Shown here one piece after another: positions 12,657 through 13,541 of a DNA stretch of 27,945 bases. This DNA comes from a virus: the IMG/VR virus record IMGVR_UViG_3300025828_000013; one strand, 5' to 3'. The notes below the pieces were generated by a model, which did not search any database, had not been told where the DNA came from, and saw only the letters and a program-made list of their open reading frames with translations. Numbering within the stretch: the first letter of the stretch is position 1; each line of letters opens with the position of its first letter. The position numbers and the translations under genes are program-made.

Positions 12657-13541
12657 ATGTTTTTCGCTGTAGATCCTTCGGATTGGGAAACAGCGCGCCT
12701 GGAGCTAGCAGGCTCGATCGTCTGGCCTCGAGCCTTGGCCATAGTCGATCTTCGCTACCTGCAGGATCGAGCGCTTAGGCCTCGAGGCTCTTTCCCTTCG
12801 AGGCGAAAGCTAGCCGAGATCTGGCAGTGGTCGCCATCTAAGGTTTCGCGACTTCTGATCGATGTAGAGGCCTGGAGCGATCCTGCCAAGCGGGAAGCAT
12901 GGAATCTCTGGTATGCGCAGAATCGCCATGGTTCAAAAGTGAACCAAAAGCGGACCAAAAGCGGACCAAAAGCGGACCAAAACCGAACCACTCGAGGCGC
13001 CGAAAAACCTGATAATCAGGAAAAGGCGAGCCAAACACGAACCAAAAGCGAACCAAAAGCGGACCAAACGCGGATCAAACGTGACCACAGGCGCGTATTA
13101 GACACAGACACAACCACAGCCACAGGCACTACACCTAAAGATACGCCTGATCTAGATCGAGTCTGGCAGGCCTACCGGGAAGCATGGCGCCGAATCCATG
13201 GCGCTAGTCTGAACCGAAAGCCTCCGAAGCGATCAGGCCTAGCCACTGTCATTCGAGAGCATGGCGAAAGCAGAGCTCTAGATCTGATCGAGTGGTTCGA
13301 GTGCAGCGAGGATGATCGAGCCTCATTCCTGCGCAGCAAAAGGATCGGACACTCTACCCTGTTTAGGCCATCCAAAGCGGCAGACTACCTCGAGGCATGG
13401 GTAGCGCCTTGGAAAGATGGACAGGCGCAGCGGTTCACAAGCCAGAGCCAGAGCCAGAGCCAAGCGAGGCAAGAACCTAGATTCGCTAGGCGCTTTCGAG
13501 TGCTGACAGGGACAGATCCAACCGTGATCGAAGGCCAGTAG
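12657..13541 (+). CDS. Replisome organizer / replication initiator-like protein (294 aa) with an internal iteron array
   Basis: N-terminal HTH-like SRRKLAEIWQWSPSKVSRLL. The C-terminal part (LATVIREHGESRALDLIEWF...HSTLFRPSKAADYLE) resembles the phage DnaD-like/TIGR02220 C-terminal pattern as I remember it. A low-complexity Lys/Thr/Gln linker is encoded by the iterons. The start ATG lies inside box copy D, so the start is uncertain. Confidence 0.6.
   Translation: MFFAVDPSDWETARLELAGSIVWPRALAIVDLRYLQDRALRPRGSFPSRRKLAEIWQWSPSKVSRLLIDVEAWSDPAKREAWNLWYAQNRHGSKVNQKRTKSGPKADQNRTTRGAEKPDNQEKASQTRTKSEPKADQTRIKRDHRRVLDTDTTTATGTTPKDTPDLDRVWQAYREAWRRIHGASLNRKPPKRSGLATVIREHGESRALDLIEWFECSEDDRASFLRSKRIGHSTLFRPSKAADYLEAWVAPWKDGQAQRFTSQSQSQSQARQEPRFARRFRVLTGTDPTVIEGQ
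12930..13082. repeat. Two blocks of about five 11-bp phased direct repeats (G[GA]ACCAAA[AC][GC]C) flanking the palindrome CCTGATAATCAGG (13008-13020): putative origin iterons
   Basis: Block 1 units start at 12941, 12952, 12963, 12974 and 12985, with a degenerate unit at 12930. Block 2 units start at 13028, 13039, 13050, 13061 and 13072. Confidence 0.8.

What the first reader, a model, noticed from the sequence alone, without database searches (positions are those of the whole stretch)
12930..13135. Phased 11-bp iteron array inside the replisome-organizer gene: putative origin of replication
About ten direct repeats of G[GA]ACCAAA[AC][GC]C occur at a strict 11-bp period. They form two blocks (12930-12995 and 13028-13082) on either side of a perfect palindrome CCTGATAATCAGG (13008-13020) with short A-tracts. 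A CA-rich stretch follows (13100-13135). An 11-bp period with embedded A-tracts places every site on one face of the helix and favours bending. The array lies in the part of the gene that encodes a low-complexity Lys/Thr/Gln linker, between an HTH-like N-domain and a DnaD-like C-domain. An origin inside the initiator gene is the arrangement known from lambda O/ori and SPP1 gene 38/oriL. A G39P-like loader candidate follows at 14300, but no helicase, primase or polymerase gene is present, so host DnaB would have to be recruited.
Basis: partly seen in the sequence, partly recalled or inferred. Interest (0 to 1): 0.65.

Follow-up and report, generated by a model that had tools for sequence, protein, structure and literature searches.

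The report
Replication origin inside phage initiator gene
The 11-bp repeats are real, are conserved as DNA rather than as protein, and change together with the DNA-reading helix of the protein whose gene contains them, so this is most likely a lambda-style replication origin inside an unannotated phage initiator gene, built to a fixed layout that distant relatives share.

Summary
Observation confirmed. Eleven head-to-tail 11-bp units lie at 12930-12995 (6) and 13028-13082 (5), then a GC box and a CA-rich tract, all in the disordered-linker part of ORF 12657-13541.

The constraint is on the DNA. Third-codon-position diversity is 0.24 in the arrays against 0.53 in the flanking domains (p 7.5e-10), and every relative keeps the 11-nt register. 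One clade carries a different unit (GACTCACTCGC). Outside the linker, its only fixed protein changes are residues 49, 54, 57 and 64, in the predicted helix-turn-helix. A recombination boundary lies at the 3' end of the arrays.

Four of five remote relatives examined as DNA have unrelated units but the same layout: 11-bp period, a 43-nt step between blocks, a CACACGCGCG-like box 8 nt after block 2, then a T-poor 6-7-mer tract. Linkers of 54 remote relatives show peaks at 11 and 29 residues.

Remote relatives fall mostly in PHROG replication-initiator families. Two are followed within two genes by a DnaB gene.

Best reading: an in-gene iteron origin that works like lambda O/ori, in a family with no Pfam model. 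"DnaD-like" and "G39P-like" are not supported. The palindrome and the A-tracts are not conserved. No AT-rich unwinding element was found. Origin activity is untested.

The parts
12657..13541 (+). Initiator gene (294 aa): N-terminal helix-turn-helix domain, disordered linker, helical C-domain. The family has no Pfam, PHROG or NCBIfam model.
   Evidence: ORF list. No family hits. 13 close homologs, all from metagenomes. AlphaFold2 domains. C-domain relatives are replication initiators.
12801..12860 (+). Coding region for the predicted helix-turn-helix (residues 49-68; helices 49-56 and 60-68). Proposed reader of the 11-bp units.
   Evidence: Secondary structure. Outside the linker, the only fixed differences between type-A and type-B proteins are residues 49, 54, 57 and 64.
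12930..12995 (+). Iteron block 1: six head-to-tail 11-bp units (GGTTCAAAAGT, GAACCAAAAGC, 3x GGACCAAAAsC, GAACCACTCGA).
   Evidence: Position weight matrix G R A C C A A R A G Y, with positions 1, 5 and 6 invariant.
12996..13027 (+). 32-nt spacer. It holds the conserved GAYAAT core (GATAAT, 13011-13016) inside a lineage-specific palindrome (13008-13020). It is the least stable 20-mer of the region.
13028..13082 (+). Iteron block 2: five 11-bp units, phase -1 relative to block 1 (43-nt step from the last unit of block 1).
13083..13095 (+). GC box GACCACAGGCGCG (core CACAGGCGCG, 13086-13095), unique in the genome. It sits at a fixed distance from block 2 and is conserved in remote relatives, where it is read in different frames.
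13096..13102 (+). 7-nt stretch (TATTAGA), A/T-rich here. Relatives have CAATTAC, TAGTAGC, TTCCTAC or CATCCCT.
13103..13135 (+). T-poor CA-rich hexamer tract (CACAGA/CACAAC type). The DNA is conserved, but it is read as Thr-rich in this clade and as Gln/Pro-rich in others.
13146..13439 (+). Coding region for the conserved helical C-domain (residues 164-261). Proposed oligomerisation or partner-recruitment module.
   Evidence: pLDDT 80-95. 85 remote relatives, mostly in replication-initiator PHROGs.
14300..15184 (+). Candidate accessory replication protein (294 aa). No detectable similarity to G39P or to any annotated family.
   Evidence: No family or PDB-sequence hits. Its homolog directly follows, and overlaps the stop codon of, the initiator gene in remote relative L029 (hhalign probability 99.6%, E 1e-23).

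Best explanation
The segment 12930-13135 is the phage's replication origin, embedded in the linker-coding part of its own initiator gene. This is the same arrangement as lambda O/ori.

Proposed mechanism, with each step marked as shown or inferred:

1. Inferred from co-variation: monomers of the initiator's N-terminal helix-turn-helix domain bind the eleven 11-bp units head to tail. They form two polar arrays, 6 units and 5 units, separated by a fixed 43-nt step.

2. Inferred: the disordered linker, which the origin itself encodes, tethers the conserved C-domains. These oligomerise and recruit a partner (the ORF 14300 protein) and the host DnaB helicase. The genome encodes no recognisable helicase, primase or polymerase.

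3. Inferred, and the weakest step: the strain of the nucleoprotein complex opens the duplex at one of two places. One is the GAYAAT-containing spacer. The other is just 3' of the conserved GC box, in the A/T heptamer and the strand-asymmetric CA tract.

Shown by comparison: the constraint on the arrays acts on the DNA. The helix-turn-helix and the arrays behave as one exchangeable specificity cassette. The layout is conserved in distant relatives that have unrelated units.
For: The repeats are real and far beyond chance.

The constraint is on the DNA.
- Among 9 type-A genes, pairwise diversity at codon positions 1/2/3 is 0.23/0.16/0.51 in the N-domain and 0.28/0.19/0.54 in the C-domain. It is 0.16/0.16/0.23 in block 1 and 0.22/0.22/0.25 in block 2.
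- Third positions: 0.241 in the arrays against 0.529 in the domains, Mann-Whitney p 7.5e-10. Invariant third positions: 19/41 against 18/214, Fisher p 3.5e-8.
- The 11-nt period means the units are read in all three frames.

The geometry is identical in all close homologs: 6+5 units, a 43-nt step, phase -1.

Specificity switch.
- One clade has the unit GACTCACTCGC in the same register. It shares only positions G1, C5, A6 and G10 with type A.
- Outside the linker, the only fixed protein differences are residues 49, 54, 57 and 64, in the predicted helix-turn-helix.
- P0005 (type A) against P0009 (type B): 47/47 identical in residues 1-46 and 96/98 in the C-domain, but 16/22 in the helix-turn-helix.
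- At the DNA level, L018 (type A) and L004 (type B) are 94% identical from the 3' end of block 2 onward for 2.4 kb. The arrays themselves cannot be aligned.
- The upstream Cro-like HTH protein does not co-vary with unit type.

L024 carries an unrelated HTH_36 N-domain with the same C-domain, and it has different repeats at the same place.

Initiator identity.
- The C-domain profile finds 85 remote relatives. The N-domains among them include HTH_36 and Phage_rep_O.
- Their PHROG hits are overwhelmingly 'replication initiation protein', 'O-like' or 'DnaD-like helicase loader'.
- In L031 a DnaB helicase gene directly follows the relative; in L030 it lies two genes downstream.

The layout holds in remote relatives.
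- L029, L030, L032 and L033 have unrelated unit cores: CGCCAGC, CGACC and ATCCArC.
- They keep the 11-bp period, the 43-nt step, the CACACGCGCG-like box 8 nt after block 2, and the T-poor tract.
- Linkers of 54 non-redundant relatives show residue autocorrelation at lag 11 (z 7.3) and lag 29 (z 6.2). These correspond to 33-nt and 87-nt offsets. In 24 of 54 the best lag is 11, 22 or 29 (p 7e-11).

Genome context: the gene lies in the early region beside RecT, a YqaJ-type exonuclease and RusA. SPP1's replication module likewise includes a single-strand annealing recombinase (gp35), an exonuclease (gp34.1) and a Holliday-junction resolvase (gp44) (PMC6316719).
Against: There is no experimental or read-depth evidence of origin firing.

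There is no classical AT-rich unwinding element. The spacer is only about 0.1 richer in A+T than the gene, and the 100-bp stability minimum lies outside the gene, at 13545-13645, which looks like a promoter region.

No DnaA boxes are present. GC skew is uninformative because it follows gene orientation.

Neither domain has a significant structural or sequence match to a solved initiator.

The type A/type B switch is essentially one recombination event. The co-change of helix-turn-helix and arrays could therefore partly reflect physical linkage.

A protein-bound array could serve another purpose, such as autoregulation or partition.
Confidence: 0.72

Rival explanations
1. The arrays are bound by the gene's own product, but they serve something other than initiation. 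Candidates are autoregulation or a transcriptional roadblock within the gene, a handcuffing or incompatibility site, or a partition or packaging site.
For: The comparative evidence shows a protein-DNA recognition module, not origin firing. No AT-rich unwinding element was found.
Against: The protein's C-domain family is populated by replication initiators, and relatives sit next to DnaB genes. The terminase small-subunit gene is 4 kb away. No partition ATPase was recognised. There is no second array elsewhere in the genome. The conserved box and strand-asymmetric tract at a fixed distance fit an origin better than an operator.
Confidence: 0.13
2. The arrays are functional DNA, but another factor reads them: a host protein or a different phage protein. 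The helix-turn-helix changes would then be hitch-hiking on the same recombination tract.
For: The type A/type B switch is a single mosaic event covering both the helix-turn-helix and the arrays. The box and the tract are conserved regardless of unit type, so at least those elements need a reader that does not vary.
Against: The unit sequence differs completely between relatives, which argues against a conserved host factor for the units. The nearby Cro-like HTH protein does not track unit type. P0021 and P0058, which are 52% identical, share both the unit core CGCCAGC and a near-identical helix-turn-helix segment. L024, with a non-homologous N-domain, has different repeats.
Confidence: 0.08
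3. There is no DNA function. The repeats are a slippage-generated low-complexity protein linker.
For: The region encodes a disordered linker. TRF also scores 22- and 33-nt periods in some relatives.
Against: An 11-nt unit is not a multiple of 3. Third-position diversity is halved relative to the domains. The register, the unit number and the 43-nt step are fixed while the peptide sequence changes. The CA tract and the GC box are conserved as DNA but are read in different frames.
Confidence: 0.03

Closest known systems
Lambda O protein and ori-lambda (lambdoid phages)
   Same: The origin lies in the middle of the initiator gene, in the part that encodes the inter-domain linker. The N-terminal domain reads the iterons and the C-terminal domain recruits the helicase-delivery partner. 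The number of iterons changes the length of the protein (PMC7466680). Relative position also matches: lambda's iterons are at nt 349-433 of a 900-nt gene, and here the arrays are at nt 274-426 of 885.
   Different: There is no sequence similarity to lambda O in either domain and no Phage_rep_O hit. Lambda's iterons are 18-bp sites spaced 20-24 bp, followed by an AT-rich tract (PMC7466680); my recollection that each site is palindromic and binds an O dimer was not checked here. Here there are eleven contiguous 11-bp direct units in two blocks, a GC box and a T-poor hexamer tract, and no AT-rich element.
SPP1 gp38 (G38P) and oriL
   Same: gp38 binds direct repeats positioned within its own gene (gene 38). 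SPP1 also carries a single-strand annealing recombinase (gp35), an exonuclease (gp34.1) and a Holliday-junction resolvase (gp44) for the switch to concatemeric replication (PMC6316719). The window has RecT, a YqaJ-type exonuclease and RusA.
   Different: SPP1 has an AT-rich unwinding element, a second origin (oriR), its own loader gp39 and its own DnaB-type helicase gp40. Here there is no second array, no helicase and no similarity to gp39's solved structure sequence.
[quoted passage not shown]
   Same: [quoted passage not shown]
   Different: [quoted passage not shown] Here the protein has a helix-turn-helix N-domain, and the Pfam, PHROG and NCBIfam scans returned no family at all.
repABC plasmids (oriV inside repC)
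   Same: The origin resides within the initiator's coding sequence (PMC3155836). One remote C-domain relative carries an RP-C N-terminal domain.
   Different: The p42d origin is an A+T-rich region without iterons (PMC3155836). Here there are iterons and no A+T-rich region.
Bacterial oriC basal unwinding system (DnaA boxes, DnaA-trios)
   Same: A resemblance of layout only: directional initiator sites, then a short G+C-rich element, then a short-period repeat tract on one strand. In L030 the tract after the box reads TAG TAG (CAG AAG)n. PMC8287927 and PMC6669920 were found by search but only their titles and abstract openings were seen; the layout of the bacterial system given here is from my own knowledge.
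   Different: There are no DnaA boxes and no AAA+ initiator. In the window the tract has a 6-nt period, not a 3-nt period. Nothing here was tested.

Membership tests
Lambdoid O/ori module | The initiator belongs to the Phage_rep_O family (PF04492) or is homologous to lambda O | tested here: not met
   No Pfam hit at E<=0.1. hhalign of the N- and C-domain profiles against lambda O gives probability about 0.1%. Only 2 of 60 remote C-domain relatives carry Phage_rep_O.
Lambdoid O/ori module | Iterons lie in the middle of the initiator gene, in the inter-domain linker | tested here: met
   The arrays are at nt 274-426 of the 885-nt gene, in the disordered segment 91-161. Lambda for comparison.
Lambdoid O/ori module | Four to six iterons of about 18-19 bp, spaced 20-24 bp | tested here: not met
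   Eleven contiguous 11-bp direct units.
Lambdoid O/ori module | An AT-rich unwinding tract next to the iterons | tested here: not met
   The nearest-neighbour stability profile shows no AT-rich tract in 12880-13200. The best 20-mer is in the spacer, at the 99.2nd percentile of the genome. A+T is 0.44-0.62 in the spacers of relatives.
Lambdoid O/ori module | The fragment supports initiator-dependent replication | not testable with these tools
   This needs a host or an in vitro system. The host is unknown: no match in GTDB genomes or in isolated phages.
SPP1 G38P-type replisome organiser | Homology to the phage replisome-organiser N-domain or to the DnaD/DnaB_2 domain | tested here: not met
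   No Pfam, PHROG or NCBIfam hit. Foldseek of the C-domain model against PDB gives E>4. BFVD hits are weak, best E 0.013. Some remote relatives do match PHROGs named 'DnaD-like helicase loader'.
G39P-like helicase loader (ORF 14300-15184) | Sequence similarity to SPP1 gp39 (PDB 1NO1) or to any loader family | tested here: not met
   The profile of 11 homologs has no PDB-sequence hit at E<=10. No Pfam, PHROG or NCBIfam hit.
Iteron-plasmid Rep (Rep_3 / WH1-WH2) origins | A Rep_3-type initiator with iterons of about 17-22 bp, usually at a 22-bp spacing, plus DnaA boxes and an AT-rich element | tested here: not met
   No Rep_3 hit. 11-bp units. No DnaA boxes. No AT-rich element.
Origin layout proposed here, shared by this initiator family | 11-bp head-to-tail units in two blocks with a 43-nt step; block 2 ends 8 nt before GCGCG of a CACACGCGCG-like box; then a T-poor 6-7-mer tract; all inside the linker of a gene that encodes the conserved C-domain | tested here: met
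   Met in the window, in 11 close homologs and in 4 of 5 remote relatives examined as DNA. L031 is the exception: 23-bp repeats and no box.

The most novel reading that the evidence does not exclude
The window is one instance of an origin layout that I did not find described and that a large family of phage initiators shares. The variable 11-bp units are read by the variable helix-turn-helix. The invariant part (a 43-nt step, a CACACGCGCG box at a fixed distance, and a T-poor short-period tract) would be a universal unwinding or helicase-loading module. It would be read by the conserved C-domain or its partner, in a way comparable to the DnaA-box, GC-cluster and DnaA-trio unit of bacterial origins, but without an AAA+ initiator. 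If so, the 11- and 29-residue periodicity of the linker would mark origins directly in metagenomic phage genomes.
Probability: 0.3. Interest if true: 0.8.

Novelty: new variant of a known kind. Interest (0 to 1): 0.62.

Why it matters
- It gives a concrete, testable origin and initiator for an uncultured marine phage lineage with a genome of about 27.8 kb and no isolated relative.
- It defines an initiator family that Pfam, PHROGs and NCBIfam do not cover.
- It shows a compact origin layout kept across very divergent relatives while the recognition sequence changes. The natural type-A/type-B pairs are nearly isogenic and differ mainly in four helix-turn-helix residues and the units, so they are ready-made material for studying initiator-iteron specificity.
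- It is a clear case of an overlapping code: protein-binding DNA units read in all three frames dictate the peptide sequence of a linker.
- The 11- and 29-residue periodicity could help to annotate origins in metagenomic phages.

Tried and rejected
- Nucleotide and protein searches of isolated phages found nothing for the region or the initiator. The large terminase reaches at best 29% identity, to Roseobacter phages. GTDB genomes gave no relative, so the host is unknown.
- Foldseek of the full-length model and of the C-domain model against PDB gave no significant match. BFVD gave only weak matches.
- A profile search against PDB sequences gave nothing.
- A word-indexed search with the N-domain alignment returned no hit at all, not even the family itself, so I treated it as uninformative.
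- Lambda O showed no similarity.
- Cumulative GC skew follows gene orientation and does not locate an origin.
- There were no DnaA boxes, no Rfam family and no tRNA.
- Folding the top strand as single-stranded DNA gave z -2.7, explained by two local palindromes and not by a larger structure.
- A possible fusion of an ORF-14300-like motif to the C-termini of P0017 and P0058 is not significant (E 0.05 and 0.017, probability below 3%).
- I considered the unstable stretch at 13545-13645 as an unwinding element. In relatives it looks like a sigma-70-type promoter (TTGCAA, 17 nt, TATAAG), so I rejected it.
- An automatic block finder failed. I replaced it with rows anchored on the GC box.
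Full report
**What is there.** The window begins and ends with the same 127 nt. It is therefore a circular assembly of a complete tailed-phage genome of about 27.8 kb. Recognisable genes are a tape-measure protein, small and large terminase, a capsid-type protein, a methyltransferase, RecT, a YqaJ/RecE-type exonuclease and RusA.

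The finding lies in ORF 12657-13541 (294 aa). Tandem Repeats Finder reports 11-bp arrays at 12934-12990 and 13022-13081 and a 6-bp array at 13100-13129. With one mismatch there are 10 matches in the window against 1.3 expected. In register there are 6 units from 12930 and 5 from 13028. The palindrome at 13008-13020 and the CA-rich stretch are present.

**The constraint is on the DNA, not on the peptide.** The protein has only 13 close homologs, all from metagenomes. I fetched their DNA from IMG/VR, JGI, ENA and Logan contigs.

Every one keeps 11-nt arrays in the same place with identical geometry: six units, a 43-nt step, then five units at phase -1.

In a codon alignment of nine type-A genes, the flanking domains show the usual relaxed third position: diversity 0.23/0.16/0.51 and 0.28/0.19/0.54 at codon positions 1/2/3. 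The arrays do not: 0.16/0.16/0.23 and 0.22/0.22/0.25. Third positions average 0.241 in the arrays against 0.529 in the domains, p 7.5e-10. Invariant third positions are 19/41 against 18/214, p 3.5e-8. Variation instead follows position within the 11-mer, with G1, C5 and A6 invariant.

**A specificity switch.** One clade (P0009-P0012; loci L004-L008, L016, L025, L027) has the unit GACTCACTCGC in exactly the same register. It shares only G1, C5, A6 and G10 with type A.

Outside the linker, the only alignment columns in which type-A and type-B proteins have disjoint residues are 49, 54, 57 and 64. These fall in the predicted helix-turn-helix, helices 49-56 and 60-68.

P0005 (type A) and P0009 (type B) are 47/47 identical over residues 1-46 and 96/98 over the C-domain. 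They are only 16/22 identical in the helix-turn-helix and 28/77 in the linker.

At the DNA level, L018 (type A) and L004 (type B) are 94% identical from the 3' end of block 2 onward for 2.4 kb. Their arrays cannot be aligned. The helix-turn-helix and the arrays therefore move as one cassette.

The neighbouring Cro-like HTH protein (12054-12350) does not track unit type.

A further relative, L024 (P0013), has the same C-domain behind an unrelated HTH_36-type N-domain. It carries different repeats, GGACAGAGAGTCC at 21-nt spacing and a 12-nt tandem array, at the same place.

**What the protein is.** Pfam, PHROGs, NCBIfam and PDB sequences give nothing for it.

AlphaFold2 gives a helical N-domain with a helix-turn-helix, a disordered segment at 91-161 and a confident helical C-domain. 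Foldseek finds no significant PDB match for either model. BFVD matches are weak. Several of them are labelled 'phage conserved hypothetical protein C-terminal domain' or 'helix-turn-helix'. 'DnaD-like' is therefore not supported.

A profile of the C-domain searched against 1.84 billion cluster representatives finds 85 relatives. Sixty were scanned.
- Pfam N-domains among them include HTH_36 (8 members), Phage_rep_O (2), MarR-type domains and RP-C.
- Their PHROG matches are almost all 'replication initiation protein', 'replication initiation O-like', 'primosomal protein' or 'DnaD-like helicase loader'.
- In P0022 the PHROG match covers the C-domain.
- In L031 a DnaB helicase gene directly follows the relative; in L030 it lies two genes downstream.

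Lambda O itself shows no similarity. The protein is best called a replication initiator of an unannotated family that works like lambda O without being a member of that family.

**A conserved layout.** Downstream of block 2, all twelve close homologs keep the box CACA(G/C)GCGCG, which is unique in the window. Then come seven mostly A/T-rich bases and a T-poor (CACAAC)n tract. The tract is conserved as DNA but is read as Thr-rich in the window's clade and as Gln/Pro-rich in the others.

I anchored each sequence on GCGCG and printed fixed-offset rows. This shows the same layout in remote relatives whose unit cores are unrelated: L029 and L033 (CGCCAGC), L030 (CGACC) and L032 (ATCCArC). They share:
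- an 11-bp period;
- a 43-nt step between blocks;
- block 2 ending 8 nt before GCGCG;
- a CACACGCGCG-like box, read in different frames (His-Thr-Arg-Ala, Pro-His-Ala-Arg, Pro-Thr-Arg-Val);
- a T-poor 6-7-mer tract.

Unit counts vary: 6+5, 5+4 and 5+6. A GAYAAT core sits at a conserved place in the spacer. The window's palindrome is a lineage-specific elaboration of it. L031 is an exception, with 23-bp repeats, a hexamer tract and no box.

The linkers of 54 non-redundant remote relatives show residue autocorrelation peaks at lag 11 (z 7.3), lag 29 (z 6.2) and lags 18, 22 and 33. These are what 11-nt units and an 87/98-nt block offset predict. The N- and C-domains of the same proteins show no such peaks. 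In 24 of 54 the best lag is 11, 22 or 29 (p 7e-11).

- ORF 14300-15184 has homologs only in this phage group and no similarity to any annotated family or solved structure sequence, including gp39. 'G39P-like' is therefore unsupported.
- Its homolog does directly follow, and overlaps the stop codon of, the initiator gene in the distant relative L029 (hhalign probability 99.6%, E 1e-23). That conserved linkage fits an accessory replication role.
- No helicase, primase or polymerase was recognised in any sizeable ORF. Dependence on host enzymes is a reasonable inference.
- A-tract bending is not a conserved property, because type-B units have no A-tract.
- 'All sites on one face' holds only within a block. 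The -1 slip between blocks is conserved.

**What is missing.** There is no AT-rich unwinding element. The least stable 20-mer of the region is in the spacer, at the 99.2nd percentile of the genome. The 100-bp minimum lies just downstream of the gene and looks like a promoter in relatives. There are no DnaA boxes. GC skew follows gene orientation. Where the duplex opens is therefore unknown, and origin activity is inferred, not shown.

**Verdict.** The most likely reading (0.72) is an in-gene iteron origin bound by the N-terminal helix-turn-helix of its own gene product. It is mechanistically like lambda O/ori (PMC7466680) and SPP1 gp38/oriL (PMC6316719). It differs in its family and in its architecture.

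Rivals:
- a bound array with another function (0.13);
- units read by another factor (0.08);
- a mere peptide repeat (0.03).

The kind of system is known. The contiguous 11-bp, two-block layout with a conserved GC box and a strand-asymmetric tract, kept across a large unannotated initiator family, was not in the papers I saw (four keyword searches, four papers opened), and I rate it a new variant of a known kind.

Noticed in passing
window 1-127 and 27819-27945: The first 127 nt are identical to the last 127 nt. The window is therefore a circularly closed assembly, a complete phage genome of about 27.8 kb. Contigs that carry the 89%-identical initiator are 28.0-28.2 kb long.
   Followed up: partly
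window 13570-13628 and 15893-15951: An element of about 55 nt occurs twice (TTTAGTGGATGGnTTATCCATG...TATGGATAnAAnATCCAAAGGGGGCAACATG), with the exact 16-mer ATCCAAAGGGGGCAAC at 13610 and 15933. Each copy sits directly in front of an ORF start and contains TGGAT/ATCCA inverted repeats. L022 and L023 also have it twice. More distant relatives have a sigma-70-like promoter (TTGCAA, 17 nt, TATAAG) at the first site. It is probably a promoter or operator. The listed ORF starts at 13578 and 15901 probably lie too far upstream.
   Followed up: partly
window 12565-12597: A perfect 13-bp stem with a 7-nt loop, followed by a T-run on the minus strand. It is terminator-like and lies between the minus-strand ORF 12347-12547 and the initiator gene.
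   Followed up: no
window 12930-12945: Units 1 and 2 together form a palindrome, GGTTC-AAAAGT-GAACC. It is present in the window's subclade and as GGTCC...GGACC in L003, but not in the other type-A relatives.
   Followed up: partly
window 13521-13538 (protein C-terminus) and relatives: The extreme C-terminus ends in a conserved (V/I)(I/L)(D/E)G(E/Q) tail after a disordered stretch, including in remote relatives P0021 and P0025. It may be a docking peptide.
   Followed up: no
L031 5381-5477: A C-domain relative with a different N-domain (it matches a PHROG named 'DnaD-like helicase loader'). It has 2.4 copies of a 23-bp repeat and a (CAGGAT)5.5 tract in its linker, but no GC box. A DnaB gene follows directly and RecT plus a PD-(D/E)XK nuclease lie upstream.
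   Followed up: partly
L024 475-663: The relative with an HTH_36-type N-domain has five direct and inverted copies of GGACAGAGAGTCC at about 21-nt spacing, then a 12-nt tandem array (GAAGAGTCCACT, 5 copies), in the linker. This is a third unit system on the same C-domain.
   Followed up: partly
window 4747-7314: The 855-aa protein downstream of the tape-measure gene has a C-terminal BNR/YCF48-like beta-propeller match just at the Pfam threshold (PF14870, 27.3 bits against a cut-off of 27). It may be a tail or receptor-binding protein.
   Followed up: no
L023 11650-12822 compared with L022 11650-12534 and 12534-12905: In one 28-kb relative the homolog of ORF 14300 is called as a 390-aa product. 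It is apparently fused with the following 123-aa gene, which is the homolog of window 15181-15555 (zinc-ribbon and HTH-like).
   Followed up: no
(tool behaviour): The word-indexed protein search with the N-domain alignment returned no hits at all, not even the 13 family members that the full-length query had found.
   Followed up: no
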